Made by a program: the position numbers and the translations under genes
Shown: positions 1,117 to 56,155 of the stretch, one piece after another
How the letters are laid out: every line of letters begins with the position of its first letter
Position numbering within the stretch: position 1 is the first letter of the stretch
Origin: a virus
Length of the DNA: 58,693 bases
Direction: 5' to 3' (one strand)
IMG/VR virus record: IMGVR_UViG_3300035698_012504
Coordinates: 1 to 58,693 of that record
The notes under the pieces: generated by a model
Databases searched by the model: none
What the model was told of the DNA's origin: nothing
The model's input: the letters and a program-made list of their open reading frames with translations, nothing else

Positions 1117-1535
1117 TGGGTTATGTCGGACCTATGTCAAAACAAGATAGGAAATATTTAAGCTCTTTCCCACATGATCTAAGAACTAATTTTATAGCAA
1201 GTACGCTAATACGATTTGGATTTAAAAGGAAAACAATTGAAGATATGGATAGGACTGTTTTAAATCTATCTAGTAGTTTTTATGTACCTGGATCAACATA
1301 TAGTAGAATTGTATCGATTCGTATTAATGGTAGAATGTGGAACGGATACACATATAGCCCTATACCTGAAGGGTATCATGCTAGAATAAAAATAACACTT
1401 AATGATGATGTCATGTATATAACGAGGCGAGATAGCCCGTATGTATACATATTTAGTGCTCCTCCGTGGCCTAAGAAAGGAAAAGATAAACAAATTCATT
1501 TGTTAAATATACTAAAGTTAGGAATCTGCATATGA
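1113..1535 (+). CDS. tandem-array small protein family member (140 aa), tail LNILKLGICI
   Basis: Start moved from ORF-track 1077 to ATG 1113, which forms ATGA with the upstream stop. AGGAGAGGGA lies upstream. Confidence 0.8.
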   Translation: MMGYVGPMSKQDRKYLSSFPHDLRTNFIASTLIRFGFKRKTIEDMDRTVLNLSSSFYVPGSTYSRIVSIRINGRMWNGYTYSPIPEGYHARIKITLNDDVMYITRRDSPYVYIFSAPPWPKKGKDKQIHLLNILKLGICI

Positions 1536-1759
1536 ATTACCCATCTATGAGGGAACTAAGTAGATATATAATGGATAATATAGCGATTGATGGATATAGA
1601 ATATCTAGCAATAGTAAAAATGGAATAATAGTTAATATGAATGAAACTAAGATCTCTATTTTAGATAGTGAACATTATTGGATTAGACTAGAGGATTATA
1701 ATAATAAACCTAAAAGAGTCTATCTCTTGGATATATTATCCCAAGGAGTAGTGATATGA
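1532..1759 (+). CDS. tandem-array small protein family member (75 aa), tail LDILSQGVVI
   Basis: ATGA overlaps at both ends. Confidence 0.8.
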   Translation: MNYPSMRELSRYIMDNIAIDGYRISSNSKNGIIVNMNETKISILDSEHYWIRLEDYNNKPKRVYLLDILSQGVVI

Positions 1760-2126
1760 AGCTTGCTCTGTTACGTGCTCTATATAATATTAATTTCACT
1801 GAGCACCTAATGGAGAATGGTGGTAATGATGTAATCTTTAAATATACAAAACCAGAAATTGATGATGATAGTAAACCATGTAGAGTATATGTTAGTGTCA
1901 CTGAGCCAAGCTATACTGGATTAGGTGGGATAAAGTGGCATTGGGACCACCAATTGATAGAGTAGTTGTAGAACTATATCGAGATTGGGATCTATTAAGA
2001 TGTTCGTATATGTCTCTTGTAGGTATGAGTAAATTTGGATATATTTATCAGGTTACAGATGTTGATTTTAAAATCACTAAAGATATATTCATTATGGACG
2101 TCCTAAAGAGAGGAATAGTAATATGA
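1756..2126 (+). pseudogene. tandem-array family member interrupted by a frameshift (1756-1965 plus 1935-2126), tail MDVLKRGIVI
   Basis: The 5' part has an ATGA-coupled start but no family tail. The 3' part has the tail and an ATGA junction but no coupled start. The frames differ by -1 and the joined length is about 124 codons. The -1 frame is open from 1905. Confidence 0.6.
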
Positions 2127-2329
2127 TCTTTGATAACGATAATAAGATACCATTTGAACATCAATCAAGAGTATATGAAGTTTATTTAGATGTCTATGAT
2201 ATGTTTCATGGTGGGCACGCAGTTCATCCCCTAATTATAGCAGGACTCCCATTTCATATTAACCCTTCCCACTTCAACTTTGGAAGAATAGCGAATTGGA
2301 TATATCATACAGGAGGAGTTGTAATATGA
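2123..2329 (+). CDS. tandem-array family, MIFDN subfamily member (68 aa), tail ANWIYHTGGVVI
   Basis: N-terminus MIFDNDNKIPFE. His/Pro-rich centre. ATGA overlaps at both ends. Confidence 0.85.
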   Translation: MIFDNDNKIPFEHQSRVYEVYLDVYDMFHGGHAVHPLIIAGLPFHINPSHFNFGRIANWIYHTGGVVI

Positions 2330-2688
2330 GCGTCCAGCAAAGAGAAGAAGAACTATTCGATTTATTACAACGTTCAGGATTTAAGAAAAGAAGTCATCGC
2401 ACATCTATGATGGATTTTAGAGAAGAATCGTTTGATTTTGGTAACTATGTAGTAATTACTCTAAATGAAAATGGGTATATTGATGTGGAGATAGTAGATA
2501 AATTAGATATAGATAAATCGAGATACTACTATGTTAAAAGAATGGATAAAAGTAGTTTTAAAATGAGAATATATGCGAGTACTTATCCCGTGGCACCAGA
2601 ACGTATATTCGAATTTAAAATAGGAATAGATAAATTAGGAAAATTAATAAATACGTTTGATGTATTTAAACAAGGAGCAATATTATGA
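2326..2688 (+). CDS. tandem-array small protein family member (120 aa), tail FDVFKQGAIL
   Basis: Start moved from 2296 to ATG 2326 (ATGA overlap, AGGAGGAG upstream). Confidence 0.8.
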   Translation: MSVQQREEELFDLLQRSGFKKRSHRTSMMDFREESFDFGNYVVITLNENGYIDVEIVDKLDIDKSRYYYVKRMDKSSFKMRIYASTYPVAPERIFEFKIGIDKLGKLINTFDVFKQGAIL

Positions 2689-2906
2689 TATACATAGATA
2701 CTATGGATCGTTATATAATTAAGAATTATGATGAGTATGTTAGTAAAATACATACAGACATACTTACCACAATCCAACATAAACTTAATAAAGGTTATGA
2801 TGAGTGGACACACTATGAATACTTTCTTAGTCGTCATCTTATAAGATCTATTAATAGCTCGAACATATGTAGTTGAATATTTGCAAAACAAGGAGTTGTG
2901 GTATGA
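2685..2906 (+). pseudogene. tandem-array family member with an in-frame TGA at 2874-2876; the family tail IFAKQGVVV* continues in the same frame
   Basis: The ORF 2685-2876 lacks the tail. Ten codons further on in the same frame come QGVVV and the ATGA junction to the next gene (2903). Confidence 0.6.
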
Positions 2907-3361
2907 CTGAAAGAGGTATAATTAATGTATTAGATTCTTTACAATTCAACAACTCTAAAATATCTGGATCTTTTGCTGCCCCTATTAATGGAAGGGGATT
3001 TGCTCATATGAATCCAGGTCCTCCAACAGCACGATTTACATTCAGAGATAAAAATAGAATATCACTATCAACTACAATTTCAAAACCACAGATGATTGAT
3101 GTAGTATCAAGAAGAACCCATTTACTCGGAGGAATATCAAGACGTGGCCTAGTTGTAGAATGTTGGTTATACATACACTCTGATATAAATGATTATTATC
3201 TTTACTTTGTCGTACCATTTAATGAATCGACATTCACTGTTTATTTCACTCATAAATATAATGAGAAGGATAAAGATCATATTGATAGGGTTGGAACATT
3301 GTTTAGTAGATCAAAACCTATATTCATTCTAGATGTATTGAAGCGAGGAGTCGTGATATGA
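2903..3361 (+). CDS. tandem-array small protein family member (152 aa), tail LDVLKRGVVI
   Basis: Start moved from 2873 to ATG 2903 (CAAGGAG upstream, ATGA motif). Confidence 0.8.
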   Translation: MTERGIINVLDSLQFNNSKISGSFAAPINGRGFAHMNPGPPTARFTFRDKNRISLSTTISKPQMIDVVSRRTHLLGGISRRGLVVECWLYIHSDINDYYLYFVVPFNESTFTVYFTHKYNEKDKDHIDRVGTLFSRSKPIFILDVLKRGVVI

Positions 3362-3687
3362 TGTATACAGATGGATCAGATATGCTATATACATTTACAT
3401 TATCTGACGTAATAACTGGTGTAAAGGGTAGATCGTTTGATTTCATTATAAAAATAGATGAATACCCAGACTTTGTTAACAAAGGGCATACAAGATTAAA
3501 AAAAGTATCTCTTTATTTCTCAGTGTTTGGTAAAACATGTACTATTGATTGTATGTTAAACTCTAAATTCCCAAATATATTCTTATTTAATAATCTCCAT
3601 TATATTGTGTTAGTATATAACAATGGAGTTACTATGCCAACTTCAGTTAACACATTTAATATAATATCTCATGGTATCGTAATATGA
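3358..3687 (+). CDS. tandem-array small protein family member (109 aa), tail FNIISHGIVI
   Basis: ATGA overlaps at both ends. N-terminus MMYTDGSD. Confidence 0.85.
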   Translation: MMYTDGSDMLYTFTLSDVITGVKGRSFDFIIKIDEYPDFVNKGHTRLKKVSLYFSVFGKTCTIDCMLNSKFPNIFLFNNLHYIVLVYNNGVTMPTSVNTFNIISHGIVI

Positions 3688-3965
3688 TTGTAGATACTAC
3701 TGATATGAAAGAGCTAGGTATTGGTGTATGTATCTCAGAAGGGTTATGGGTAGATACATTTCACACCAAAGATATAATGCTAACTTTATACCGTTATATA
3801 GATGGAGGATCAATTACATCCATAACTAGAGATCAGGCTGAATTGGTCAGACATCATGGTAGAGTATATACATTTGATTTATTTGATACGCATATTATAT
3901 CATCTGCTCATCATAATGGATTAATTACTCCACTCAACATGATAAAGAGAGGGATTGTAATATGA
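3684..3965 (+). CDS. tandem-array small protein family member (93 aa), tail LNMIKRGIVI
   Basis: ATGA overlaps at both ends. N-terminus MIVDTTDM. Confidence 0.85.
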   Translation: MIVDTTDMKELGIGVCISEGLWVDTFHTKDIMLTLYRYIDGGSITSITRDQAELVRHHGRVYTFDLFDTHIISSAHHNGLITPLNMIKRGIVI

Positions 3966-4189
3966 TATTTGACAACGGCAACGAGTTATTATTTGAAGAT
4001 TGTCTACCAGTGTATGATGTGTATTTTAAAATATCTGATGTTTTTGGTATACCCCTCCGTATTAAATTTCCCCTTCCAAAAAATAAATATGGAAATCCCA
4101 AAGTTTTATATTACCTTCCGACGCTCCCTAGAATACATATCTCAATAATATTTAAGTTGATATATTATAGTAAAGGAATTAATATATGA
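3962..4189 (+). CDS. tandem-array family, MIFDN subfamily member (75 aa), tail LIYYSKGINI
   Basis: N-terminus MIFDNGNELLFEDC. Pro-rich centre. ATGA overlaps at both ends. Confidence 0.85.
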   Translation: MIFDNGNELLFEDCLPVYDVYFKISDVFGIPLRIKFPLPKNKYGNPKVLYYLPTLPRIHISIIFKLIYYSKGINI

Positions 4190-4488
4190 TATATGAAGAT
4201 ACTACAGATGCCCTAATGGGGGTGGAATATAATCCCGCAGAAGAATGTATTAAACTTAGCTATGGTAAGGAATCATTTTCACATGTAGATGTTGCTCTTT
4301 ATAGTGATGGTGGATTCGGATTTAGAATATCTAGATACCATTATATGAATATGTTGTCGTGTGTTACAGTAAAACGATCATACCGACAAAGGTTCGAATA
4401 TATATTTAAGACTGGATGCCATGAGCAATTTAGAAAGAAGCGATATGTTAATCTGATGGATATCTTCAACAGAGGAGTTCCTATATAG
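4186..4488 (+). CDS. tandem-array small protein family member (100 aa), tail MDIFNRGVPI
   Basis: ATGA overlap at the start. N-terminus MIYEDTTD. The TAG stop overlaps the next GTG start (TAGTG). Confidence 0.85.
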   Translation: MIYEDTTDALMGVEYNPAEECIKLSYGKESFSHVDVALYSDGGFGFRISRYHYMNMLSCVTVKRSYRQRFEYIFKTGCHEQFRKKRYVNLMDIFNRGVPI

Positions 4489-4712
4489 TGTATGTAGATG
4501 TAAAAGTTAATATGATGCTTAGTGCCGTAATGTACAAAGATGCTGGAGATTTTCGCGACTTGTGTGTTCATAATTATACTAGACCACTAGCCATTAAACC
4601 AATTAGATATAGTGGATATGGTAGGGATATGGGTTATACAGCATACATTAGAGGTTTTAGATTTAAGGACGTATTTAACCAAGTAATGAAGAGAGGAATA
4701 GTATGGAAATAG
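4488..4712 (+). CDS. tandem-array small protein family member (74 aa), tail FNQVMKRGIVWK
   Basis: GTG start overlaps the upstream TAG. The junction reads ATGG instead of ATGA, so the tail runs 2 codons past the thyX ATG. Confidence 0.7.
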   Translation: MYVDVKVNMMLSAVMYKDAGDFRDLCVHNYTRPLAIKPIRYSGYGRDMGYTAYIRGFRFKDVFNQVMKRGIVWK

Positions 4713-5485
4713 TAGAACCGAAAGTATTTTTAATAGCAGAAACTAAATTAGATAATGAGGGCCTTCTTGAATATCTCAAGGATCTTAACGTATTAGATTA
4801 TAGCTGGAGTGCCCCGTCTGATTCAGAGGCGCTATGTGAGATGATGGGAAGATTGTGTTATAGATCATTCAAGCCTGGTCTTAATCCCAATGTTACAAAA
4901 GTAAGGACCGGTAATGATGTATACTTAAAGAACATTATAAACACTGGGCATGGGTCAGTTTTAGAACATGCTAGTGTAAGTTTTATATTCAAAGACGTAT
5001 CTCGAGTATTCACGCATGAGCTTGTTCGACATAGATCAGGGGTAGCTATATCTCAAGAGTCTCTTAGATTCGTTAGGTTAGATAAGCTTAGTGCGTATGT
5101 CCCGATACAGATAGAAGAGAATGAAGAAGCAATGTCTTTGTTCATGGATACGTTTGATAAACTTGAAGAGGTGCAAAAACAACTCGCTGACATTTACGAT
5201 ATAGAGAACACTGATGACTTTGCTAGGAAGAAAGAATTAACCTCTGCATTCAGGAGAGTTGCCCCTATTGGATTAGCAACTACCATAGGGTGGACATGTA
5301 ATATGCGAGCACTAAGACACATAATCGAATTAAGAACTAGCCCACATGCAGAGATAGAACTTAGAGTAGTATTCGCAAAAGTATTTGATATAGTGAAAGA
5401 TAAATACCCTAATATATTTGGAGATTATAAAGTAGAGATGGTAGATGGTATACCGTGGGTGCATACTACGGAGGAGAAGATCTAA
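4703..5485 (+). CDS. thyX: flavin-dependent thymidylate synthase ThyX
   Basis: ThyX signature RHRSGVAISQESLR plus GHGSVLEH. AGAGAGGAA RBS lies inside the upstream tail codons. Confidence 0.9.
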   Translation: MEIVEPKVFLIAETKLDNEGLLEYLKDLNVLDYSWSAPSDSEALCEMMGRLCYRSFKPGLNPNVTKVRTGNDVYLKNIINTGHGSVLEHASVSFIFKDVSRVFTHELVRHRSGVAISQESLRFVRLDKLSAYVPIQIEENEEAMSLFMDTFDKLEEVQKQLADIYDIENTDDFARKKELTSAFRRVAPIGLATTIGWTCNMRALRHIIELRTSPHAEIELRVVFAKVFDIVKDKYPNIFGDYKVEMVDGIPWVHTTEEKI

Positions 5486-5501
5486 CATAAGGTAGTGAAT
5501 T

Positions 5502-5818
5502 ATGATATATGTTACTGGATGTATAAACTCAACGTTTTCTGAAAAGTTGATACATGAATCATTTAATAACATCTTAATATTATTAGACTTCATAGATGAT
5601 GATGATTATATGAATTATATCCTTGAGTATGGTATTAAGATTTATCCAATTTGTCCCATTCGATTTGAACTCTATTTAATTATAGACACTCCCCTCAGAT
5701 AGATATTCATTTCACACAAAGTCCAAAAATATCTGTAGTGTATACTAGTAAAGGTATACGTGTACCAGTCATTAGCTTTCATTTAATTGATATATTTAAG
5801 AGAGGGATAGCCATATAA
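5502..5818 (+). pseudogene. tandem-array family member interrupted by a frameshift (5502-5702 plus 5669-5818), tail IDIFKRGIAI
   Basis: The N-terminus MIYVTG is in one frame. The -1 frame is open from 5669 and ends with the family tail FKRGIAI* at 5816-5818. Confidence 0.55.
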
Positions 5819-5828
5819 AGGAGATAGT

Positions 5829-6077
5829 ATGCACATAGATGAAGACGGATTATACAATGAAGTTGCTCGTTATATTAGAACAAGGAATGATTTATCATTA
5901 GGACTTACTGTTATGAATATAACAAATGGTAAATTATTAATAGTAGTAGTTAATGACCCATCTAATAGAGGAACGCGGTTTAATCATGTAGATAATCTTA
6001 AAGAAATACTACCCAAAGTAATTCATTATTTCATATTAGTGTATATGGATGTTATGAAGGAAGGAATAAATATCTAA
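5829..6077 (+). CDS. tandem-array small protein family member (82 aa), tail MDVMKEGINI
   Basis: AAAGGAG RBS. The stop overlaps the next start as TAATG. Confidence 0.8.
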   Translation: MHIDEDGLYNEVARYIRTRNDLSLGLTVMNITNGKLLIVVVNDPSNRGTRFNHVDNLKEILPKVIHYFILVYMDVMKEGINI

Positions 6078-6451
6078 TGGATATGTATATGAGAACTCCT
6101 TTAATAAGACCATGTAGAGAAGAATATGATCATAGTTTTAGTACGAGAATATGTCACGCATGGATAAGAACTAAAACTAATTCATTTATTCACTTCCAAG
6201 TATCTGTTTCTCCAACTAACTCTACAGACAAATTCAAGCTGATGATGTTTTTGACAACAGATGATAAAATCAATGAAATAGGGACACGGGCATGGGTAGA
6301 AGAAAAACAAATATTAAGTATAGGAGCATCTAGGATGTTTGAATTATACTATGGGACCAGACTACAAAATCCTCTTATCATTCAGGGAATTTTTAAAAAA
6401 GGGGTATGTATCAATTCGAATGATTTTTTAAACGGAGGAATCGATATATGA
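6077..6451 (+). CDS. tandem-array small protein family member (124 aa), tail DFLNGGIDI
   Basis: TAATG overlap at the start and ATGA overlap at the end. Confidence 0.8.
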   Translation: MDMYMRTPLIRPCREEYDHSFSTRICHAWIRTKTNSFIHFQVSVSPTNSTDKFKLMMFLTTDDKINEIGTRAWVEEKQILSIGASRMFELYYGTRLQNPLIIQGIFKKGVCINSNDFLNGGIDI

Positions 6452-6810
6452 TATTTATATCTCCACCAGAAGATGGATTATATTCAGACTCAATTGTTAG
6501 GATAGAGCTTGTACCACACTCATCTAATCGCAGATATAAATTTATTGCTAATATTCCATCTAAACTAGATGATGTTTTATGTTCAATTTACGTCAGAAAA
6601 AAATCCCCATGGTGCCGAGACGATATAATAATAATATCATTCAAGCATCATAGATGTTATTTTCAAATATCTACTTTTAGTGGGTATGAACCAACTAAAG
6701 TATTTACTAAACCTAAAGTACAAACACTAATAACTAAACAGGGATGCAAATCAGAAGAAACTTATAGGGATATGGGTAGAATGTTTAGATGTGGAGGAAT
6801 CTCAATATGA
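6448..6810 (+). CDS. tandem-array small protein family member (120 aa), tail MFRCGGISI
   Basis: ATGA overlaps at both ends. ACGGAGGA upstream. Confidence 0.85.
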   Translation: MIFISPPEDGLYSDSIVRIELVPHSSNRRYKFIANIPSKLDDVLCSIYVRKKSPWCRDDIIIISFKHHRCYFQISTFSGYEPTKVFTKPKVQTLITKQGCKSEETYRDMGRMFRCGGISI

Positions 6811-7037
6811 TATTCGACAACGGTAATAAATTGTTATTTAAAGATTGCTCGTTAGTATATGACTATCTTAAATTATATAATTACATTCACCTTCACCCTC
6901 ACCTTCACCCTCACCTTCACCTTCACCCTCACCCTCACCCTCACCTTCGCCCTCACTCCCGCCTTCCCCTTCACCCTCACCTTCAACCCGAAAAATTATT
7001 TAACTGGGTGTATAATAAAGGAGGAGTTGTGATATGA
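6807..7037 (+). CDS. MIFDN subfamily member with a (His-Leu/His-Pro)n repeat core (76 aa), tail FNWVYNKGGVVI
   Basis: Start moved from 6789 to ATG 6807 (ATGA overlap). Near-identical paralogue at 8556-8786. Confidence 0.85.
   Translation: MIFDNGNKLLFKDCSLVYDYLKLYNYIHLHPHLHPHLHLHPHPHPHLRPHSRLPLHPHLQPEKLFNWVYNKGGVVI
6888..6983 (+). repeat. in-frame hexanucleotide repeat CACCYT (16 units, degenerating at the 3' end) encoding HLHPHLHP...
   Basis: Read directly: cac ctt cac cct cac ctt cac cct ... inside CDS 6807-7037. Confidence 0.9.
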
Positions 7038-7432
7038 TATTTGATACGACGTGTGAATATAACATGTATCAGTATGCATATGGAATGACTACACGTAAGA
7101 ATACAGTGACTAGAGAACATACTAGAATTACTATCCGTTCTCTTAGAGGTTATTGTTTCACATTCGAAAATCTAAGACATCCTCCGAAAGAATATGAAGG
7201 GCATTTTATATCGAGGGACGTTGAAGAGTTTTTAATAATTTATAAAGTAGATAGGATTACAGATGTTTATTACGATTTTATAAGAATAGGGAAAGTAGTG
7301 AGAGGGAAGAATCATTTAGTACGAAATGGAAAGAGAGAAATAATAATAACAACTGGTGTAAATCATACTACATCTGTTCCCAATGTATGTACAATTATAT
7401 TGGCGCTTTGTAGGAAAGGAACAGTCATATGA
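7034..7432 (+). CDS. tandem-array small protein family member (132 aa), tail ILALCRKGTVI
   Basis: ATGA overlaps at both ends. AAAGGAGGAG upstream. Confidence 0.85.
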   Translation: MIFDTTCEYNMYQYAYGMTTRKNTVTREHTRITIRSLRGYCFTFENLRHPPKEYEGHFISRDVEEFLIIYKVDRITDVYYDFIRIGKVVRGKNHLVRNGKREIIITTGVNHTTSVPNVCTIILALCRKGTVI

Positions 7433-7647
7433 TATTTGATAATGATAATAAAATGTTGATCGGAGATCCTACTAAAGCTTATAATACATATTGTTATATT
7501 AATACTCACACATGGGCAATTCAATATCTTAGTATGCATCTTCATACTAAATATCTTAATCTTACTCTTTTCCCACATTCTCGATTCCATCCTAGATTAG
7601 GAACCACATACAAATGGATAATTGAAAATAAAGGGGTCGTGATATGA
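7429..7647 (+). CDS. MIFDN subfamily member (72 aa), tail KWIIENKGVVI
   Basis: N-terminus MIFDNDNKMLIGD. His-rich centre. ATGA overlaps at both ends. Confidence 0.85.
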   Translation: MIFDNDNKMLIGDPTKAYNTYCYINTHTWAIQYLSMHLHTKYLNLTLFPHSRFHPRLGTTYKWIIENKGVVI

Positions 7648-8006
7648 TATTTGAATCGGTTAACATTGATTTGTTTTGGAGAGATGGATTACATTTGAGA
7701 ACATTAAAACATGGTTATACCCACTTCTTTAGAGAAACTTACGTTGATAAAATATTTATGCATGATACATTTATAGGAGATTTATTACTCGAATGTATCC
7801 TTGTCAACCATATAGATTATATAAGAATACGAATTCCAACATTTCCATATAGATCCATGACATATAAATTTGATATGGGTACCGAGATACTCATTCGATT
7901 TGGATCTGGTAATATATTCTGTACGCAGACAAGTAAAAAAGAAGAAAAAATTAAGTGGTTTCAATTTGGAACTTTAGATATCATGACTAGAGGGGTAGTT
8001 ATATGA
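7644..8006 (+). CDS. tandem-array small protein family member (120 aa), tail LDIMTRGVVI
   Basis: ATGA overlaps at both ends. The N-terminus MIFESV is shared with the member at 9960. Confidence 0.85.
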   Translation: MIFESVNIDLFWRDGLHLRTLKHGYTHFFRETYVDKIFMHDTFIGDLLLECILVNHIDYIRIRIPTFPYRSMTYKFDMGTEILIRFGSGNIFCTQTSKKEEKIKWFQFGTLDIMTRGVVI

Positions 8007-8251
8007 TTTATGTATATGATGCATCAGATTCATTACAAGGTATAAGATTAGATGATATTGAATTTTATATATCATCGGATGCAGTATGTGATATGTGTAA
8101 GAGAACAGATATTATGTGTGATAATCAATGTGCTATTTACTTTAATTCATGGCCATTTACAGAGGTGACCAAAGAGTTTTATGTTCCACCACGACCAACC
8201 ATCCCTCTTATGTATAATTGGGTGAGGAGACAGATAGGAGCTGTTGTATGA
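8003..8251 (+). CDS. tandem-array small protein family member (82 aa), tail YNWVRRQIGAVV
   Basis: ATGA overlaps at both ends. The NW tail resembles the MIFDN subfamily. Confidence 0.8.
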   Translation: MIYVYDASDSLQGIRLDDIEFYISSDAVCDMCKRTDIMCDNQCAIYFNSWPFTEVTKEFYVPPRPTIPLMYNWVRRQIGAVV

Positions 8252-8559
8252 TATATTTTACAAATGACACCCAGGGCGGGATGCAACAACATAATATAGA
8301 TGTCTACGTTAAAGATGTGTTACAGTTTTATAGACAAATCTATGATTTTGAACCTTACTATAATATACTAGATCCTATATTAAAGTATGCCCCAATATGT
8401 AGATATACTAGAGATGCTATATTATTTACACAAGAGGTATCCCCTGGTCTTTTTGGGGTTGTGATTAAAGAAGAACATCAAGAATTTCATGGAGTTAAAG
8501 TTACATTGTCTTTTATATGTGGATGGGTAATGCATCAACAACAAGGAGTAATTATATGA
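8248..8559 (+). CDS. tandem-array small protein family member (103 aa), tail VMHQQQGVII
   Basis: Start moved from 8218 to ATG 8248 (ATGA overlap, TAGGAG upstream). Confidence 0.8.
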   Translation: MIYFTNDTQGGMQQHNIDVYVKDVLQFYRQIYDFEPYYNILDPILKYAPICRYTRDAILFTQEVSPGLFGVVIKEEHQEFHGVKVTLSFICGWVMHQQQGVII

Positions 8560-8786
8560 TGTTTGATAACGGTAATAAATTGTTATTTAAAGATTGCTCG
8601 TTAGTATATGACTATCTTAAATTATATGATTACATTCACCTTCACCTTCACCTTCACCCTCACCTTCACCCTCACCTTCACCTTCTCCCTCACCTTCTCC
8701 CTCACCCCCGCCTTTCCCTTCACCCTCACCTTCAACCCGAAAAATTATTTAACTGGGTGTATAATAGAGGAGGAGTAATAATATAA
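8556..8786 (+). CDS. MIFDN subfamily member with a (His-Leu/His-Pro)n repeat core (76 aa), tail FNWVYNRGGVII
   Basis: Start moved from 8517 to ATG 8556 (ATGA overlap). Near-identical to 6807-7037. Confidence 0.85.
   Translation: MMFDNGNKLLFKDCSLVYDYLKLYDYIHLHLHLHPHLHPHLHLLPHLLPHPRLSLHPHLQPEKLFNWVYNRGGVII
8637..8732 (+). repeat. in-frame hexanucleotide repeat CACCYT (second copy)
   Basis: cac ctt cac ctt cac ctt cac cct ... Same length and register as 6888-6983. Confidence 0.9.
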
Positions 8787-9139
8787 TGTATGTAGATTGT
8801 ATGGATAAGGATATTTATCCAGAAGCCATTTAATTAGGATGTTCAAATACATATGATAAGAGTGGAGATACATGCGATCTAATGTTTTGCAACTTCAGTG
8901 AAAAACATCCATATGAATTTCTTATGAAATTAGGAATATCTGATATAAGAATAAAAATATCATATCCAGTTGGAGAGCGAAGAGTAGTTAATTTAATGAT
9001 ACTTGGACTAAAGAGCGGTGATGGAATATATGTAAAGTTCAGCGCACTGAAGACAATAACAATTATGTCTGAAGATGGGGAACGCAAATGGAATGATTAC
9101 ATGGGTTGGTTTTTACAGCAAGGTATATATATTAAATAG
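8786..9139 (+). pseudogene. tandem-array family member with an in-frame TAA at 8831-8833, tail WFLQQGIYIK
   Basis: The TAATG-coupled start gives MYVDCMDKDIYPEAI*. The same frame then continues without further stops into ORF 8882-9139. Total length is 118 codons, typical of the family. Confidence 0.55.
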
Positions 9140-9182
9140 TGACAGAAGGAATCTATTTCACACAACCAAAAAGGAGAGAAGT

Positions 9183-9692
9183 GTGAAGAATATTCATTGG
9201 CCCAAGGCGTGCATCTATATTTTTCTTTTACTGTTTTTATTACTTGCTAATGGGGAAATTGTAGGCGAGTTGAAAAGACCTATAATAGAATCCCAATTGA
9301 GTGCTGCGATAACAATTCCAGTTGTTATATTAGGTTTAAGTCAGAGCATATTCTTGGGATGGCTCATCGGGGCCATCGTCTGCTCATCTATAGGATTTAT
9401 GAATAATCCAATTGAACGTGTAATTGAAGAATTTGATAAAAAAGGAATACGAGCATATTATACAAATATGATATCTTTTTACGGGCTCATTATATTAACA
9501 CCATATAATTTATTTCTGTACTTTTGGCCAGTAGACGCAACTACTACGTTTATATTTGGAAACATTATGTTTTGGGCTGTATCTAGTATTATAATTTATA
9601 AGAATCTATGGGAGAACGTGAAGATTGACAACTTGGTTAAGGAGTGGTTCTTATGCAAGCCCTATCAGATATGTTTAAAATCTCAAAGCTAG
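9183..9692 (+). CDS. multi-pass membrane protein (169 aa) embedded in the array
   Basis: GTG start 9183 preceded by AAAAGGAGAG. Several hydrophobic segments (IYIFLLLFLLLA, ITIPVVILGLSQSIFLGWLIGAIV, GLIILTPYNLFLYFW, IMFWAVSSIIIY). ORF-track start 9075 rejected. Confidence 0.65.
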   Translation: MKNIHWPKACIYIFLLLFLLLANGEIVGELKRPIIESQLSAAITIPVVILGLSQSIFLGWLIGAIVCSSIGFMNNPIERVIEEFDKKGIRAYYTNMISFYGLIILTPYNLFLYFWPVDATTTFIFGNIMFWAVSSIIIYKNLWENVKIDNLVKEWFLCKPYQICLKSQS

Positions 9693-9949
9693 CAGTCGCT
9701 GTATTCATTCTAATAAATGTACTACATGTATTGATGTTTGTTGTAGCTATACCTATAGTAGTTATGTTGTACACTAAACTTAAGCTTATGGGAACTATCC
9801 CAGAGGATGGGATTATACCACTTATAGTATTATTTGGGGGTGGTGCTACTGTTGGCTTAGCATTTTCGTCTATGAAAAAGAAAATTTTAGAGTGTGTGGT
9901 ACCTGAATCTATGCATAATGAAAATAACCCGATAGTGGATGAACTATAA
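9653..9949 (+). CDS. small membrane protein (98 aa), two predicted TM helices
   Basis: ATG 9653 lies 8 nt after AAGGAG. Hydrophobic stretches LAVAVFILINVLHVLMFVVAIPIVVML and IIPLIVLFGGGATVGLAF. Confidence 0.65.
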   Translation: MQALSDMFKISKLAVAVFILINVLHVLMFVVAIPIVVMLYTKLKLMGTIPEDGIIPLIVLFGGGATVGLAFSSMKKKILECVVPESMHNENNPIVDEL

Positions 9950-9959
9950 GGATAAATCC

Positions 9960-10289
9960 ATGATATTTGAATCTGTTAAATCTATTAGCCCATTTAATAG
10001 TAGTAATATAACTAAATACCCATTTGGAGAATCTTTAGTAACATGTCAAGTAGATTATAATCTTAGAAAGAAGTTTAGGATAGGGATAACTGTAATAAAT
10101 CATAACACATATTATAAAGAAAAGGTAATTGTGATTTCCTATTTCCAAACAGATGGTAAGATTAGAAGTGCTGAAATAGGGCCTATACAAAAATCATCAT
10201 TTAGATCCTATTTTACCACTAAAATTATTACACATGGTGAAATCATTAATGCTTTTCTTAAACTGACGGGTAATGGAATAAGTATATGA
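9960..10289 (+). CDS. tandem-array small protein family member (109 aa), tail FLKLTGNGISI
   Basis: Start moved from 9939 to ATG 9960 (MIFESV, as in member 7644). ATGA overlap at the 3' end. Confidence 0.8.
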   Translation: MIFESVKSISPFNSSNITKYPFGESLVTCQVDYNLRKKFRIGITVINHNTYYKEKVIVISYFQTDGKIRSAEIGPIQKSSFRSYFTTKIITHGEIINAFLKLTGNGISI

Positions 10290-10611
10290 TAGTAGATGGG
10301 TTAATCATGGGATCCAACTCATCAGAAGTTAGACTTCAAAAAATGATAATATCTGGTAGCCTCAAACCAGGACAAGAATATATATCTATTATTGATCTTA
10401 CAAAAAAAGAGTAGTATTTTTCATTAGATTTTATGGTGCGCTGGTCTCAGGGCCATTTGATCCACATCAATCCTATATCTCGGTGAGCAGATACATAGAG
10501 ATCGTAGATGTAGACGGTGGATTTAAATTAAAATATATACGAGAAAAATTTAAAACACTATTGATTGGAAATCTATACATTATGATATCGAAACGAGGGA
10601 TTCTAATATAA
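10286..10611 (+). pseudogene. last array member, split at an A7 tract: 10286-10414 (42 codons) plus the -1 frame 10396-10611 ending in the family tail YIMISKRGILI
   Basis: ATGA-coupled start MIVDGL. The 0-frame stops at TAG 10412. The -1 frame is open from 10396 and carries the tail. The joined length is about 108 codons. Confidence 0.6.
10402..10408 (+). other. A AAA AAA slippery heptamer / homopolymer (candidate -1 frameshift or indel site)
   Basis: The 0-frame reads aca aaa aaa gag tag. Phasing fits X XXY YYZ, with a 0-frame stop 1 codon downstream. Confidence 0.5.
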
Positions 10612-12839: not shown

Positions 12840-12854
12840 GAAGTAATTATTCGT

Positions 12855-12886
12855 GTCTGGGGCTCTCTAGTTAGAGGGTCCCAGAC
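12855..12886 (+). terminator. stem-loop (14 bp including 2 G-U pairs, 4-nt loop) after a stop codon
   Basis: GTCTGGGGCTCTCT agtt AGAGGGTCCCAGAC. No clear U-tract. Confidence 0.45.
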
Positions 12887-12900
12887 ATAATTAGCAGTAT

Positions 12901-12930
12901 CAACAATAAATATATTATTTTTTATTGTTG
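12901..12930 (+). terminator. perfect 10-bp inverted repeat CAACAATAAA/TTTATTGTTG with a 10-nt T-rich loop
   Basis: Read directly. AT-rich stem, so it may be a terminator or an operator. Confidence 0.35.
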
Positions 12931-12939
12931 AAAATATAA

Positions 12940-12949
12940 TGAGGACAAA
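12940..12949 (+). promoter_or_regulatory. TGAGGACAAA motif, site 1 (47 nt upstream of ATG 12996)
   Basis: Identical 10-mer at 37518, 43814 and 56005. Three of the four sites are in the rare intergenic gaps. Confidence 0.45.
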
Positions 12950-18610: not shown

Positions 18611-19177
18611 ATGTCTAAAAAACTTTCATATGAATATGTAAAGCAATATTTTGAAGAAAATAGTTGCGAATTATTAGAAAGGGAATATGATAATTGTATG
18701 ATTAAAATGAAATATAAATGTTCTTGTGGAAGAATAAGTAAAATAAGTTTTAATAATTTTAAAAGTAAACATAGATGTAGTGATTGTGGTGGGAATGAAA
18801 AACATTCTTATGAATATATAAAACAATATTTTAAAGATAATAATTGTGAATTATTAGAAAAAGAATATATTAATAATAAAACTAACATGAAATATAAATG
18901 TGAATGTGAAATATTACTAGGATATTCTAGAAAAGATATTTTAGAGTATCTTAAGAAGGATCCAAATTTTGATAACTGGGTAAAGAATTCATCCAGCTGG
19001 CACATAGATCATATTATTCCAATAAAAGCATTTGTAGAAAATGAAATAACTAATCCGAAAATAATAAACGCTTTAGATAATTTAAGAATTATACACTGGA
19101 AAGAAAATTTACAAAAAGGTGCTACATTTAATAAGAATGAACTTCAAAGTTATGTGCAATCGAAAGGTATATTATGA
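18611..19177 (+). CDS. HNH homing-endonuclease-like protein, family copy 1 (188 aa, internally shortened)
   Basis: Two N-terminal YEY[VI]KQYF..CELLE..MKYKC.C modules. C-terminal HNH core WHIDHIIPIKAF...NLRIIHWKENLQKG. Confidence 0.75.
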   Translation: MSKKLSYEYVKQYFEENSCELLEREYDNCMIKMKYKCSCGRISKISFNNFKSKHRCSDCGGNEKHSYEYIKQYFKDNNCELLEKEYINNKTNMKYKCECEILLGYSRKDILEYLKKDPNFDNWVKNSSSWHIDHIIPIKAFVENEITNPKIINALDNLRIIHWKENLQKGATFNKNELQSYVQSKGIL

Positions 19178-20746: not shown

Positions 20747-21434
20747 ATGGGTAAAAAATTAACTTATGAATATGTTAAACAATACTTTAAAGATAATAAT
20801 TGTGAATTGTTAGAAGATGAATATATTAATTCTAGGACTAAAATGAAATATAAGTGTTCATGTGGGAATACATCTGAGATTAGATTTAGTGATTTTAAAA
20901 ACGGTCATAGATGTAATAAATGTGGGACTAAAAGGACCCGTGATAAATTAAGTCATAGTTATAAATATATAAAGCAATTATTTAAAGATCAGGGGTGTGA
21001 ATTATTAGAAAAAGATTATGTTGATAATCATACTAATATGAAATATATATGTTCTTGCGGTAACTCTGCAGAAATAACTTTTAACAGATTTCAATATGGA
21101 CATAGATGTATGAGATGTGGAAATGATAAGATATCAGGTCATAATCATCATAATTGGAACCCTGATAGAAATGTTGTTAGGAAGACAAAAGAGATACACA
21201 ACTTAAGTGCGTCATATAAAAATAACTACAGAAAGAAACATAACATCTAAAGACGTGCATATAGATCATATAATTCCGGTAAAAGCATTTGTGGAAAATG
21301 GGATATTTGATTTAGATATAATCAATGATGATAAAAATTTACAGTTGCTTTCCAGTAGGGAAAATTTAAGTAAAAGTGGTAAATATAATCAGGAAGATCT
21401 TGTAATATTTTTAAAGGAAAGGGTATCGGTATAA
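20747..21434 (+). pseudogene. HNH homing-endonuclease family copy 2, split by a frameshift (20747-21250 / 21207-21434) and internally deleted
   Basis: The N-terminal modules and NWNPDR are in one frame. The HNH core VHIDHIIPVKAF...NLQLLSSRENLSKSG is in the +1 frame. The linker present in copies 3 and 4 is missing. Confidence 0.6.
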
Positions 21435-24653: not shown

Positions 24654-26315
24654 ATGACGTATAAACCATCATTTAGAAAATACAAAGCCCTTAAAGTTAA
24701 AAAACCAAAAAGAAATATTAGGGCCACTGATAAGCGAGGGCAAGTAACTATAAAAGGAAAATCTATATCAATTACTGAAGTTGAGAAGCTACATCAAAAT
24801 AAAAAGGTAAGGAAACCTAAAACTATATATAGAAATAGAACAAGATCTGATGAACACAGACATTATCCATTAAATATAGTGGTTGTTGCATATAATGAAT
24901 TAGAATATACTATGAAATGTGTAGAATCTATCAGAAAGAATACAAAAGGATCATATGCCCTCTATTTAGTAGACAATGGGTCAGATGATAAAACATATAA
25001 ATACTTTAGGACTGTTAAAAATGCAAATATTATAAGGATTGATAAGAATCGGGGATATGCATATGGATGCAATGAAGCATTGCGTAAGATATTTCGTGGT
25101 GATGTGATTATATTAAATAGCAATATAATTGTTCCAAAAAATTGGACCACCCACCTTTTAAATGTTTTAAATTCTAATGAAAATATAGGTATGGTTGGTC
25201 CAGTGTCCAATGATATTAAAGGGGCACAGAATATAAATGTAGATATTAATTGTTCGCCTCAGGAGATTAATAAATTATCTGATAAGATTCAGATGAGTGC
25301 AGGAACTGCCAAAATTAAAGTAGATAATATTTGTGGACATTGTGTTGTTATACGTGGAGATGTATTTAAACAAATTGGATTATTTGATCCCGTATTTGTA
25401 TGTGATACCTTCGGAAATAATGATTACTGTAAGAGAGTAAAACTAATGGGGAAAGAGATAGTAATTTCAAAGGGATCGTTTGTTTACCATTGCACCAACG
25501 AATCACCTATTAGTATTGATGAAAAAGAATATACAAAACGGTTCGAATTTAACACAGGATTAACTCAAAAGAAATGGAATAATAAAGGAGTTGATCTTGA
25601 TAGTACGTTAATATTAGATATGGATGAATACGAGGACCTTGTATCTATTATAACACCATGCTTCAATAGTCATAACTTTATAGAAGCATGTGTAAATTCT
25701 GTCCTTACCCAAACTCATAAAAATATTGAAATGATAATAGTTGATGATGGATCTAATGCAGAGACAAAAAGAAAACTAAAGATGTGTGTTGATAAAAGCG
25801 AGCGTATTAAGTTAATAACTAATCCTATAAATAAGGGGAGATCGTTCTCTAGGAATAGAGCTATAGAAAATGCTAAAGGAAAATATATCCTCCCTCTTGA
25901 TTCTGATGATCTTATACATAGACAGTGTGTTGCAATATTAGTGAAGCATATGAAAGAAAATGATGATGCGAAAATTTGTTATCCTTTAACAAAGGAATTT
26001 GGAAATTGTAATAAAATATGGTTTTATCCTTATAGAAAAGATTTACTAGTTCAACAAAATTTATTACCATGCACCTCTATGTTCTTAAAGGATGCTTGGA
26101 TAAACTGTGGTGGGTATGATATAAGGGTGGATGGATACGAAGACTGGGACTTTTGGTTGAGAATGTATGATAGTAATACAAGGGCAATTGGTGTACCAGA
26201 ACCAATATTTTTTTATAGAAAACACAATACTAATTCTGCCAATGGTATAGATAGAAAACATGGGCACGATATAGTAACCAAAATTAAATCATTCCACCCT
26301 AAATTATTTGGATAG
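24654..26315 (+). CDS. bifunctional glycosyltransferase with two GT2 domains and a ~70-aa Lys/Arg-rich N-terminal extension
   Basis: Domain 1: VVVAYNE..LVDNGSDD...NRGYAYGCN. Domain 2: IITPCFN..IIVDDGS...LDSDD...YEDWDFW. Confidence 0.8.
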   Translation: MTYKPSFRKYKALKVKKPKRNIRATDKRGQVTIKGKSISITEVEKLHQNKKVRKPKTIYRNRTRSDEHRHYPLNIVVVAYNELEYTMKCVESIRKNTKGSYALYLVDNGSDDKTYKYFRTVKNANIIRIDKNRGYAYGCNEALRKIFRGDVIILNSNIIVPKNWTTHLLNVLNSNENIGMVGPVSNDIKGAQNINVDINCSPQEINKLSDKIQMSAGTAKIKVDNICGHCVVIRGDVFKQIGLFDPVFVCDTFGNNDYCKRVKLMGKEIVISKGSFVYHCTNESPISIDEKEYTKRFEFNTGLTQKKWNNKGVDLDSTLILDMDEYEDLVSIITPCFNSHNFIEACVNSVLTQTHKNIEMIIVDDGSNAETKRKLKMCVDKSERIKLITNPINKGRSFSRNRAIENAKGKYILPLDSDDLIHRQCVAILVKHMKENDDAKICYPLTKEFGNCNKIWFYPYRKDLLVQQNLLPCTSMFLKDAWINCGGYDIRVDGYEDWDFWLRMYDSNTRAIGVPEPIFFYRKHNTNSANGIDRKHGHDIVTKIKSFHPKLFG

Positions 26316-26319
26316 TAAA

Positions 26320-31056: not shown

Positions 31057-31082
31057 AAAGGCTAGGGATAGAGAAATATTAA

Positions 31083-32628: not shown

Positions 32629-32629
32629 T

Positions 32630-33085: not shown

Positions 33086-33087
33086 AT

Positions 33088-33573: not shown

Positions 33574-33583
33574 GGATATAGTT

Positions 33584-34114: not shown

Positions 34115-34128
34115 GAGTATTAGAGGAT

Positions 34129-34914: not shown

Positions 34915-34924
34915 AGGATTCAAT

Positions 34925-36213: not shown

Positions 36214-36215
36214 TT

Positions 36216-37517: not shown

Positions 37518-37527
37518 TGAGGACAAA
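37518..37527 (+). promoter_or_regulatory. TGAGGACAAA motif, site 2 (intergenic, 133 nt upstream of ATG 37660)
   Basis: Identical 10-mer. Flanked by the imperfect inverted repeat AAGCTTGAG / CTCAGCTT. Confidence 0.4.
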
Positions 37528-43813: not shown

Positions 43814-43823
43814 TGAGGACAAA
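43814..43823 (+). promoter_or_regulatory. TGAGGACAAA motif, site 3 (intergenic, 52 nt upstream of ATG 43875)
   Basis: Identical 10-mer. The match extends to 13 nt (TGAGGACAAATTA) with site 4. Confidence 0.45.
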
Positions 43824-55789: not shown

Positions 55790-56155
55790 ATGACACTAAG
55801 ACATCAAGAAGACGTAAGACACATAAAGAGTAGGTTGCGAATCTTAGAAAAAGATAAACACCCACCTATATCTGTTAGTACATTTGACGCTGGCGATATA
55901 ATGGATCAGTTAACATTAATAAATAATAGATTAATGGAAATAGTAGGAATAATGAAAGATCCATCAGTAACATACACATCTACTGGAAAAGGAAATGAAA
56001 AAAATGAGGACAAATTAAAGAAGGGCTCTAGTCCTACGTATATACCTGAGCCAGATATATCAGATATTACTTCACGTACAAACAAAGTTAGTAAACGAAC
56101 AAAGACTGTTGATATTGCATCACAATTAGATAAACTAGGAGAATTAGAAAGGTAA
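55790..56155 (+). CDS. hypothetical protein (121 aa) upstream of the actin-like gene
   Basis: ORF starts 1 nt after the upstream stop. Contains TGAGGACAAA site 4. Confidence 0.65.
   Translation: MTLRHQEDVRHIKSRLRILEKDKHPPISVSTFDAGDIMDQLTLINNRLMEIVGIMKDPSVTYTSTGKGNEKNEDKLKKGSSPTYIPEPDISDITSRTNKVSKRTKTVDIASQLDKLGELER
56005..56014 (+). promoter_or_regulatory. TGAGGACAAA motif, site 4 (inside a CDS, 144 nt upstream of the actin-like gene ATG)
   Basis: Identical 10-mer. 13-nt identity with site 3. Confidence 0.3.

What the first reader, a model, noticed from the sequence alone, without database searches (positions are those of the whole stretch)
12940..12949. TGAGGACAAA: identical 10-mer in three of the rare intergenic gaps plus one site upstream of the actin-like gene
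The exact sequence TGAGGACAAA occurs at four sites:
- 12940, in the gap before the lipoprotein gene, 47 nt from its ATG;
- 37518, in the gap before the GDPD gene;
- 43814, in the gap after the RNR gene, 52 nt before a small ORF;
- 56005, inside CDS 55790-56155, 144 nt before the MreB-like gene.

Sites 3 and 4 share 13 nt (TGAGGACAAATTA). Each site has an A/T-rich run directly upstream. At sites 1 and 2 a TATNAY hexamer lies 10 nt (site 1) or 9 nt (site 2) downstream (TATGAT, TATAAC). Non-coding DNA is only a few percent of this window, so three hits in gaps are unlikely to be chance. The arrangement resembles activator-dependent phage promoters, with a box replacing the -35 element as in T4 MotA-type middle promoters. 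It could mark transcription-unit starts in an otherwise continuous + strand gene train. My scan for further copies was by eye and may be incomplete.
Basis: partly seen in the sequence, partly recalled or inferred. Interest (0 to 1): 0.55.

Follow-up and report, generated by a model that had tools for sequence, protein, structure and literature searches.

The report
Conserved gene-upstream box in uncultured phages

Summary
TGAGGACAAA occurs exactly four times, all on the + strand (0.22 expected). Three copies lie in the 2.2% of the window that is non-coding.

Apart from ribosome-binding-site words, it is the only 10-mer shared by three or more gaps.

The core is conserved in distant relatives (RNR 60-66% and actin-like protein 51-55% identical). 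AGGACAAA sits just after the RNR gene in two of them and just after RecA in two others. In one it lies in a gap between divergent genes.

In five relatives fetched after the hypothesis was written down, 7 of 15 GGACAAA copies lie in gaps (0.75 expected, P = 3e-6), all co-oriented with the genes.

No hexamer keeps register across 14 sites. In two relatives the box ends only 29-33 nt before a conserved start codon, with the Shine-Dalgarno sequence in between.

My best reading is a start-site-proximal promoter element, or an activator site next to the start, read by phage-encoded or phage-modified machinery. An RNA-leader or processing signal is the main rival.

A second, different clade-wide motif (cTATATATATTAAATAGTG) was also found.

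The parts
12940..12949 (+). Box copy 1 (TGAGGACAAA), in the gap between the 209-aa ORF and the lipoprotein gene (ATG 12996)
   Evidence: It is the second-best hit in the whole window of a weight matrix built only from relatives.
12853..12888 (+). 16-bp terminator-like hairpin upstream of box 1, followed by a weaker A/U hairpin at 12900-12931
   Evidence: -37.9 kcal/mol for the 105-nt stretch, z = -7.95, and 0 of 200 shuffles fold as well.
12935..12940 (+). Perfect TATAAT whose last T is the first base of box 1. This is a candidate -10 element that would place the start site inside the box.
   Evidence: Read directly from the sequence. Comparable hexamers sit 0-7 nt upstream of the box at several clade sites, but not in a fixed register.
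37518..37527 (+). Box copy 2, in the gap between the ATP-grasp gene and the GDPD gene (ATG 37660)
   Evidence: The gap is identical in three other assemblies.
43814..43823 (+). Box copy 3, 10 nt after the stop of the intein-bearing class II RNR gene and 53 nt before the 28-codon hydrophobic ORF at 43877-43961
   Evidence: It is the top hit in the window of the relatives-only matrix. AGGACAAA sits at the same place, just after RNR, in L025 and L027.
56005..56014 (+). Box copy 4, inside the 121-aa ORF 55790-56155 (codons GAG GAC AAA), 143 nt before the actin-like gene. It may be an internal signal or may reflect coding.
   Evidence: It shares 13 nt with copy 3 and is the fifth-best hit of the relatives-only matrix. 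The host ORF is the ortholog of the gene that follows the box in L025 and L027; those orthologs carry no internal box.

Best explanation
TGAGGACAAA is this phage's version of a clade-wide, strand-specific signal for the start of a gene block. The relaxed consensus is T..nA-GGACAAA-T(A/T).

I think it is a promoter element lying at or just upstream of the transcription start. It could overlap the -10/discriminator/+1 region, or be an activator site directly next to it. It would be read by a phage-encoded or phage-modified transcription apparatus, and it would start the units that begin at about 12.95 kb (lipoprotein block), 37.5 kb (GDPD, DHFR, dCMP deaminase, RNR) and 43.8 kb (small membrane ORF, 5'-3' exonuclease onward), and possibly 56.0 kb (actin-like gene).

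Shown: non-random position, strand and identity in the window; conservation of the core at orthologous and other gaps in relatives; presence in a gap between divergent genes; near mutual exclusion with a second promoter-like motif.

For: Position and strand in the window:
- 4 copies against 0.22 expected, all on the + strand.
- 3 of 4 lie in the 2.2% that is non-coding, P = 4e-5, and it is the only non-RBS 10-mer shared by three or more gaps.
- A terminator-like hairpin lies just upstream of site 1.

Conservation in relatives:
- AGGACAAA follows the RNR stop in L025 (7358) and L027 (6995), as at site 3, while the flanks differ.
- It follows RecA in both L031 (15488) and L032 (12902).
- In L032 (7755) it lies in a gap between divergent genes, 48 nt before the ATG and after a hairpin. 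L024 (9758) and L023 (20751) show similar divergent-gap cases.
- In a test I wrote down before fetching the new loci, 7 of 15 GGACAAA copies lie in gaps against 0.75 expected, P = 3.4e-6, all co-oriented with the genes.
- A weight matrix built only from relatives ranks sites 3 and 1 first and second among about 117,000 window positions.

Relation to other signals:
- Of 76 gap/strand cases, the box and the second motif (cTATATATATTAAATA) are nearly exclusive: 11 have only the box, 16 only the second motif, and 2 both. That is what two promoter classes would give.
- The upstream three bases are uniform within a genome (TGA in the window) but differ between genomes. This fits co-evolution with a phage-encoded reader.

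Geometry:
- In L025 and L027 the box ends 29 and 33 nt before a conserved ATG (N-termini MD[VI][YF]S) with AGGA in between. The start site must therefore lie close to the box.
Against: - There are no transcript 5' ends for this phage or any relative, so the DNA-versus-RNA level of action is inferred.
- No companion element (-10 or -35) holds a fixed register with the box.
- There is no enrichment of a T4-late-like TATAAATA downstream (P = 0.08).
- No sigma, MotA, AsiA or RNA polymerase domain was found in the window ORFs that I scanned.
- One relative carrying the actin-like gene (L034) has no box in 21 kb.
- The 10 kb upstream of the window has no box despite many gaps.
- The G-to-A variants (CAGAACAAA, CGGAACAAA) that lie 14-17 nt from start codons in L025 and L027 were noticed after the fact, and may be a different thing.
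- Site 4 is inside a coding region.
Confidence: 0.45

Rival explanations
1. It acts on RNA. The box is part of the mRNA leader: a cleavage site for a host or phage endoribonuclease that cuts polycistronic transcripts ahead of the next gene, or a binding site for a protein that controls stability or translation.
For: - It is strictly on the sense strand and always upstream of a gene.
- The variant copies in L025 and L027 lie 14-17 nt before the ATG, directly next to the Shine-Dalgarno sequence, where a leader element would sit.
- No fixed-register promoter partner was found.
- Several copies lie directly after the stop codon of the preceding gene in a co-directional train, for example L025 7358 and L023 1252, which overlap a TAG stop.
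Against: - No conserved secondary structure surrounds the box, and there is no Rfam match.
- The box occurs in gaps between divergent genes, where there is no upstream co-directional transcript to process unless another promoter lies in the same gap.
- It is nearly exclusive with the other promoter-like motif, which is not expected for a leader element.
- The Shine-Dalgarno-like GAGGA is not kept in relatives (TAGGAC, CAGAAC).
Confidence: 0.2
2. One reading: the box replaces the -35 element (centred near -30) as an activator site of the T4 MotA type, with a host sigma-70-type -10 (TATNAY) 9-10 nt downstream.
For: - TATGAT lies 10 nt after site 1, TATAAC 9 nt after site 2 and GATAGT 9 nt after site 3.
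- There is an A/T-rich run upstream of each site.
- The clade appears to have three signal classes: sigma-70 consensus, the TATATATTAAATA motif and this box. This recalls T4's early, middle and late promoter scheme (from my own knowledge of T4).
Against: - Across 14 clade sites there is no TAnnnT peak 9-13 nt after the box.
- In L025 and L027 a start site about 22-26 nt past the box would fall at or after the Shine-Dalgarno sequence of a gene whose start codon is conserved.
- The box has no TGCTT core.
- A 9-10 nt spacing is shorter than the 11-13 nt of T4 middle promoters (from my own knowledge).
- No MotA or AsiA domain was found in the window ORFs that I scanned.
Confidence: 0.08
3. It is an operator: a binding site for a phage DNA-binding regulator (repressor or timing switch) that modulates nearby host-type promoters rather than defining the promoter itself.
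For: - It is an invariant, asymmetric 10-mer with no degenerate copies, as expected for a sequence-specific protein site.
- -10-like hexamers lie at variable distance upstream: TATAAT abutting site 1, TATAAT 6 nt before the L024 box, TAATGT before the L025 and L027 boxes.
Against: - It is a single half-site with no dyad symmetry or repeat.
- Sites 2 and 3 have no convincing sigma-70 promoter nearby.
- No candidate regulator was identified.
Confidence: 0.12
4. It is chance or a by-product: four coincidental copies of a purine-rich word, or remnants of a duplicated segment.
For: - The 8-mer core is not over-represented in number.
- Site 4 encodes E-D-K in a protein rich in acidic residues and lysine.
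Against: - The positional statistics argue against it.
- Flanks outside the box are unrelated, so it is not a duplication.
- It was independently replicated in relatives.
Confidence: 0.02

Closest known systems
T4 MotA/AsiA-dependent middle promoters (MotA box TTTGCTTTA centred at -30 plus a sigma-70 -10)
   Same: A short, asymmetric, phage-specific box upstream of replication and nucleotide-metabolism genes, in a phage with a T4-like clamp loader (33-36% identical to those of T4-like phages). It coexists with other promoter classes.
   Different: The sequence is unrelated. No -10 element holds register downstream. In two relatives the box is too close to the start codon to sit at -30. No MotA or AsiA was detected in the window ORFs that I scanned.
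T4-type late promoters (a single element, TATAAATA, at -13 to -6, read by gp55/gp33 with the sliding clamp)
   Same: A single short element with no -35 partner, close to the start site. This geometry is compatible with all strict AGGACAAA sites, which leave at least 29 nt to the ATG. In L031 and L032 the box heads the block that follows RecA. In the P0122 contig, for which only a gene table and no DNA was returned, the block after RecA includes PAAR-motif and Amidase_2 proteins and looks structural.
   Different: The box has three G/C positions and is not A/T-only. The clade's other motif (..ATTAAATA..) looks more like TATAAATA. Downstream TATAAATA-like words are not enriched. The variant copies 14-17 nt from the ATG would not fit this geometry.
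Single-element or start-site-proximal promoters of phage-specific polymerases and sigma factors (T7-like -17 to +6; phiKZ/AR9 non-virion RNAP motifs at the start site; phiEco32 gp36 TAATGTATA). All recalled from my own knowledge, not tested here.
   Same: High-information, nearly invariant words within one genome. They are close to or include the start site, and they drift between related phages.
   Different: No such polymerase or sigma was found in the window, and no sequence matches those consensus motifs. The exact word TAATGTATA does occur just upstream of the box in L025 and L024, but that is a post hoc observation.
PeSL cassettes (promoter-early stem-loop repeats) of T4-type phages
   Same: A repeated intergenic signal beside accessory genes. 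At site 1 a stem-loop precedes it.
   Different: PeSLs are repeats of tens of bases that include the stem-loop. Here only 10-13 nt are shared and the flanks are unrelated.

Membership tests
T4 MotA-dependent middle promoter | MotA box (a/t)(a/t)(a/t)TGCTT(t/c)A centred near -30 | tested here: not met
   The box is TGAGGACAAA, with clade core AGGACAAA and no TGCTT. The consensus is recalled from my own knowledge.
T4 MotA-dependent middle promoter | A sigma-70 -10 element (TAnnnT) about 11-13 bp downstream of the box, with the start site about 26 nt past the box | tested here: not met
   There is no positional TAnnnT peak 9-13 nt after the box in 14 sites. In L025 and L027 only 29 and 33 nt separate the box from a conserved ATG, and the Shine-Dalgarno sequence lies inside that stretch.
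T4 MotA-dependent middle promoter | motA and asiA genes in the genome | tested here: inconclusive
   Pfam found no such domains in the window ORFs that I scanned; the first 10.6 kb of small ORFs and most of the transferase block were not scanned. The rest of the genome is not available.
T4-type late promoter | TATAAATA (or a close variant) at -13 to -6 with no -35 element | tested here: not met
   The box is not TATAAATA. The best TATAAATA match within 0-8 nt downstream is not enriched against gap controls (6 of 14 with at least 6 of 8 matches, against a 23% background, P = 0.08).
Bacterial sigma-70 promoter with AGGACA as the -35 element | A -35 hexamer followed by a 17 +/- 1 bp spacer and TATAAT | tested here: not met
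   AGGACA matches TTGACA at 4 of 6 positions, but no TAnnnT peak occurs 22-23 nt from the first G. The only weak peak is at +25 to +27 (6 of 14), which is not significant after about 90 windows were tested, and the window's own sites do not contribute to it. The generic scan reports no promoter at these sites.
SPO1 gp28 middle promoters (AGGAGA, 17-18 nt, TTTNTTT; consensus recalled from my own knowledge) | AGGAGA at -35 and TTTNTTT at -10 | tested here: not met
   AGGACA matches 5 of 6, but 17-18 nt downstream the sequences are TAGTTCG, AATACTC and ACCTCGT, not TTTNTTT.
Shine-Dalgarno / ribosome-binding site | A purine-rich core 5-10 nt before a start codon | tested here: not met
   The annotated starts are 46, 132, 53 and 143 nt away, and each has its own AGGAG-type site. 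Only site 1 has an in-frame ATG (12957) 7 nt after the box, and it is a worse candidate than 12996.
Known structured RNA families (Rfam) | A match at the gathering threshold | tested here: not met
   There were 0 matches in the whole window and no tRNA genes.
PeSL repeat cassette | Tens of bases of shared sequence that include a stem-loop and an early promoter | tested here: not met
   Alignment of the four sites shows identity only in the 10-13-mer. Only site 1 has a hairpin.

The most novel reading that the evidence does not exclude
The box is the core promoter, of an initiator-like type that includes or abuts the start site, for a so far unrecognised phage-encoded specificity factor or RNA polymerase. 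That factor would be shared by an uncultured clade of large phages with a T4-like clamp loader and primase, a class II or class III RNR and an actin-like (Pfam Volactin family) protein. The cTATATATATTAAATAGTG motif and ordinary sigma-70 promoters would be the other two temporal classes.
Probability: 0.12. Interest if true: 0.65.

Novelty: new member of a known kind. Interest (0 to 1): 0.4.

Why it matters
If the box marks unit starts, it gives a first map of the transcription programme of an uncultured clade of large phages found in many metagenomes. The contigs carrying close homologues (42-56% identical) of the actin-like gene reach about 335 kb.

The map would have three signal types: sigma-70-like promoters, the TATATATTAAATA motif and AGGACAAA. 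It points to a conserved phage-encoded reader that has not been identified. It also supplies a simple sequence handle for annotating related contigs and for choosing targets for 5'-end mapping.

In itself, a phage-specific promoter word is an ordinary kind of finding.

Tried and rejected
Searches for relatives or the source that gave nothing useful:
- Megablast of 10 kb against deposited phages gave no match.
- An exact 37-mer scan of IMG/VR found no source contig.
- IMG/VR searches with the ATP-grasp, actin-like and exonuclease proteins, and with an actin alignment, gave only distant or unrelated viruses without the motif. The one metagenome scan gave only relatives 30-38% identical.
- Copies of the same phage in other assemblies are 100% identical, so they are useless for footprinting.
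- The huge phage LR745208 (actin-like protein 36% identical, GC 55%) has no motif. L029 and L030 turned out to be bacterial.

Tests of the motif that came out negative:
- Degenerate copies: none in gaps at up to 2 mismatches.
- Extended similarity around the sites: none.
- RNA structure around the box: none, apart from the hairpin before site 1. Rfam and tRNA scans were empty.
- A fixed-register -10 on either side of the box: none.
- A downstream TATAAATA: not significant.
- I checked by eye for a sigma-54 pattern (GG, 8 nt, TTGC). It fits only L027 and I rejected it.

Searches for a reader protein or prior description:
- A literature search for GGACAAA returned only primer noise. A search for volactin returned only archaeal cell-biology papers.
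- PDB sequence searches for four unknown proteins near site 1 gave no hits.
- Pfam and PHROGs scans of most of the window's larger ORFs found no sigma, MotA, AsiA or RNAP domain.

Full report
**1. The observation**

TGAGGACAAA occurs exactly four times in the 58,693-base window, at 12940, 37518, 43814 and 56005. All four copies are on the + strand. Dinucleotide-preserving shuffles expect 0.22 copies, and none of 100 reaches four.

Allowing one mismatch adds three hits, all in coding sequence, which is the chance level. Allowing two mismatches adds no further hit in any gap.

With a hand-checked gene map, the window has 1302 non-coding bases (2.2%). The chance that three or more of four copies fall there is 4e-5. 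Among all 10-mers, the only ones present in three or more separate gaps are three overlapping ribosome-binding-site words (AAAGGAGAGAA) and this one. Shuffled gaps give 0.03 such words on average.

There is one qualification. The 8-mer core AGGACAAA is not over-represented in number (4 found, 3.07 expected). What is non-random is where the copies lie, their strand, and their identity over ten bases. Outside the 10-13-mer the four sites share nothing, so they are not copies of a duplicated segment.

**2. What the window is**

It has no close relative among deposited phages. GC content is about 31%, every gene is on the + strand, and Shine-Dalgarno sites are strong and stereotyped.

The genes include ThyX, a peptidyl-tRNA hydrolase, a clamp loader, a primase, DHFR, dCMP deaminase, a class II RNR with an intein, a 5'-3' exonuclease and a LigD-type phosphoesterase. 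There are also several HNH and GIY-YIG endonucleases, a block of glycosyl-, sulfo- and methyl-transferases about 12 kb long, and an actin-like protein of the Pfam Volactin family.

The clamp loader is 31-36% identical over its full length to those of T4-like phages of cyanobacteria, Pelagibacter, Ralstonia and others. No sigma factor, MotA, AsiA or RNA polymerase domain was found in the window ORFs I scanned.

The same phage, 100% identical, is present in several public assemblies. One of them extends 10 kb upstream of the window (L014), and that stretch holds no copy of the word.

**3. Relatives**

I searched with the RNR and the actin-like protein and then looked up the contigs that encode the hits. 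This gave real relatives of the phage:
- L025/L026 and L027/L028 (RNR 64% and 60% identical). They are syntenic: DUF7487, PDDEXK, LigD_N, RNR, a small gene, GIY-YIG, the actin-like gene, RecA, all on one strand.
- L023 and L024 (RNR 66% and 64% identical).
- L031, L032 and L034 (actin-like protein 51% identical).

These come, and L034.

After seeing GGACAAA in gaps of L023 and L024, I wrote down the hypothesis and tested it on loci fetched afterwards. In L025, L027, L028, L031 and L032, 7 of the 15 GGACAAA copies (both strands counted) lie in gaps. Gaps make up 1-7% of those loci, so 0.75 copies are expected there (P = 3.4e-6). All seven are co-oriented with the genes. L034 adds one coding copy and none in gaps.

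Two pairs of copies are at orthologous places:
- Directly after the RNR stop: L025 7358 gtaTAGGACAAAtac and L027 6995 actCAGGACAAAata, to compare with the window's site 3, agTGAGGACAAAtta.
- Directly after RecA: L031 15488 and L032 12902, both tTAGGACAAATTT.

In L032 a further copy (7755) lies in a gap between divergently transcribed genes, 48 nt before the ATG and just after a hairpin. L024 9758 and L023 20751 are also in divergent gaps. A promoter for the downstream gene must exist in such gaps.

A weight matrix built only from the eleven copies in relatives, scanned over both strands of the window, ranks site 3 first and site 1 second. Site 4 is fifth and site 2 ninth.

The clade consensus is roughly T...nA-GGACAAA-T(A/T). 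The three bases before AGGACAAA... more precisely, the bases before GGACAAA are uniform within a genome (TGA in the window) but differ between genomes.

**4. What the layout can and cannot be**

Across 14 strict sites, no TAnnnT hexamer is enriched at any fixed distance from the box, 9-13 nt downstream included. The only weak peak, at +25 to +27, is 6 of 14 sites. It is not significant given the number of offsets examined, and the window's own sites do not contribute to it.

More decisively, in L025 and L027 the box ends 29 and 33 nt before a start codon that is clearly the real one. The two proteins begin MDVYS and MDIFS, and an AGGA Shine-Dalgarno sequence lies 18-26 nt past the box. A start site 22-26 nt past the box would leave no leader. 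The start site must therefore lie within about 17-22 nt of the box end, which excludes a position at -30 or -35.

A T4-late-like layout (one element at about -13 to -6) fits all strict sites. So does a layout with the start site inside the box. Good -10-like hexamers do lie 0-7 nt upstream of GGACAAA at several sites: TATAAT abutting site 1, TATAAT in L024, and TAATGT in both L025 and L027. They are not in one register, however.

A T4-late-like TATAAATA downstream of the box is not enriched (P = 0.08).

G-to-A variants (CAGAACAAA, CGGAACAAA) sit 14-17 nt before start codons in the remaining gaps of L025 and L027, one pair of them at orthologous gaps. If they are the same element, only a start site within or upstream of the box, or action on RNA, would fit. 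I noticed them after the fact and weight them lightly.

**5. A second motif and the overall picture**

The 10 kb upstream of the window, which has many small genes each preceded by a terminator, carries a different recurrent motif, cTATATATAT(T/C)AAAT(A/G)GTG. It matches 13 times in L014 at up to 3 mismatches, against 3.2 expected. One exact copy lies in the window at 9126, before the GTG at 9183. The same motif stands in gaps of L023, L024 and L032.

Over 76 cases (a gap taken with the strand that needs a promoter), 16 have only this motif, 11 have only GGACAAA, 2 have both and 40 have neither. Canonical TTGACA-17-TATAAT promoters are also visible in gaps of L023 and L024.

So these phages appear to use three kinds of gene-upstream signal. 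This recalls, but does not prove, an early/middle/late scheme.

**6. Mechanism**

My best-supported reading (confidence about 0.45) is that the box is a promoter element close to the start site, or an activator site directly next to it. It would be read by a phage-encoded or phage-modified apparatus and would start the gene blocks at 12.95, 37.5 and 43.8 kb.

Conservation across phages with 24-37% GC (which may mean different hosts), together with the genome-specific flanks, points to a phage-encoded reader.

The main rival (about 0.2) is an RNA-level leader or processing signal. It explains the sense-strand restriction and the variants next to Shine-Dalgarno sites. It does not easily explain the copies in divergent gaps or the exclusion with the other motif, and no structure or Rfam family supports it.

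Chance is very unlikely.

Site 4 is ambiguous. It encodes E-D-K inside the ortholog of the very gene that follows the box in L025 and L027, and those orthologs carry no internal copy. On the other hand, it shares 13 nt with site 3 and fits the clade consensus well.

**7. Comparison with known systems and novelty**

The box does not meet the defining features of any of the following:
- T4 middle promoters or T4 late promoters;
- sigma-70 -35/-10 promoters;
- SPO1 gp28 promoters;
- ribosome-binding sites;
- PeSL cassettes;
- any Rfam family.

The membership table gives the test for each. It works most like the single-element, phage-specific promoters known from several phage groups.

It is a new word of a known kind of signal, in an undescribed clade. 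That makes it useful for annotation and for finding the unknown reader, but not surprising in kind. No transcript data exist, so the level of action and the exact geometry remain inferences.

Noticed in passing
window 9126-9141; L014 1203, 2841, 3968, 5512, 6880, 8867; L023, L024 and L032 gaps: There is a second, different promoter-like motif, cTATATATAT(T/C)AAAT(A/G)GTG. It stands before many small genes upstream of the window, usually after a terminator, and once in the window before the GTG at 9183. It is conserved in relatives with only 60-66% identical RNR. In L014 it matches 13 times against 3.2 expected. It is nearly exclusive with the AGGACAAA box.
   Followed up: partly
window 27-10414: There is a tandem array of about 25 small paralogous genes. 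Their last codons encode ..[KRQ]G[IVA][VSCI]I and are followed by ATGA start/stop overlaps. As a result the conserved GGAG/AGGA of the Gly codon region serves as the Shine-Dalgarno sequence of the next gene.
   Followed up: partly
window 6789-7037 and 8517-8786: Two of the small paralogs carry a His/Pro/Leu low-complexity run (HLHPHLHPHLHLHPHPHPHL...).
   Followed up: no
window 5703-5828 and 9140-9182: The 11-mer ATTTCACACAA is shared by two further gaps. In the second gap it lies about 25 nt after the TATATATTAAATAGTG motif.
   Followed up: no
window gaps generally: The ribosome-binding sites are unusually stereotyped: AAAGGAGAGAA(A) is shared by three to four gaps.
   Followed up: no
window 24654-37487: A block of about 12 kb holds glycosyltransferases, sulfotransferases, methyltransferases, a hexapeptide transferase and an ATP-grasp enzyme. 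This is a large glycan-modification island for a phage.
   Followed up: no
window 40573-43803: The class II (B12-dependent) RNR is interrupted by an intein with a LAGLIDADG endonuclease. Relatives carry intein-free or multi-intein versions, or a class III NrdD instead.
   Followed up: no
window 18611-19177, 20747-21434, 52200-53009, 54473-55291, 57179-58075, 46574-48415: There are many homing-endonuclease-like genes. Four paralogs carry repeated YEYVKQYF..C.CG modules and a C-terminal H..HI.P motif. There is also a GIY-YIG protein and a DUF7487 protein with a C2H2 zinc finger.
   Followed up: no
window 56158-57222 and relatives: The actin-like protein belongs to the Pfam Volactin family, named after a haloarchaeal protein. 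It has more than 200 homologues (E <= 1e-40) on phage-like contigs; those with 42-56% identity are on contigs of up to about 335 kb. It usually lies near RNR and RecA.
   Followed up: partly
L025 7349-7357, L027 6981-6986, L024 9739-9747: TAATGT (as TAATGTATA in L025 and L024) lies 2-13 nt upstream of the box in three different phages. A rough, post hoc expectation is 0.17 such sites in 14. Its meaning is unknown.
   Followed up: partly
L014 75-469: By eye, the long gap at the far upstream end shows about nine roughly 37-nt units of the form AGAGACCC..(8-10 nt)..AGTGT(A/G)(C/T)CA. Tandem Repeats Finder did not call it.
   Followed up: partly
L034 1998-2049 and 18729-18789; L008 6282-6444: Other phages with the actin-like gene have their own recurrent gap sequences. 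L034 has a shared stretch of about 45 nt, GTGTAAATTTTTTTCTAAGTTATGT.GAATATATA.TAAG, in two gaps. L008 has repeated AAATTCATA words.
   Followed up: no
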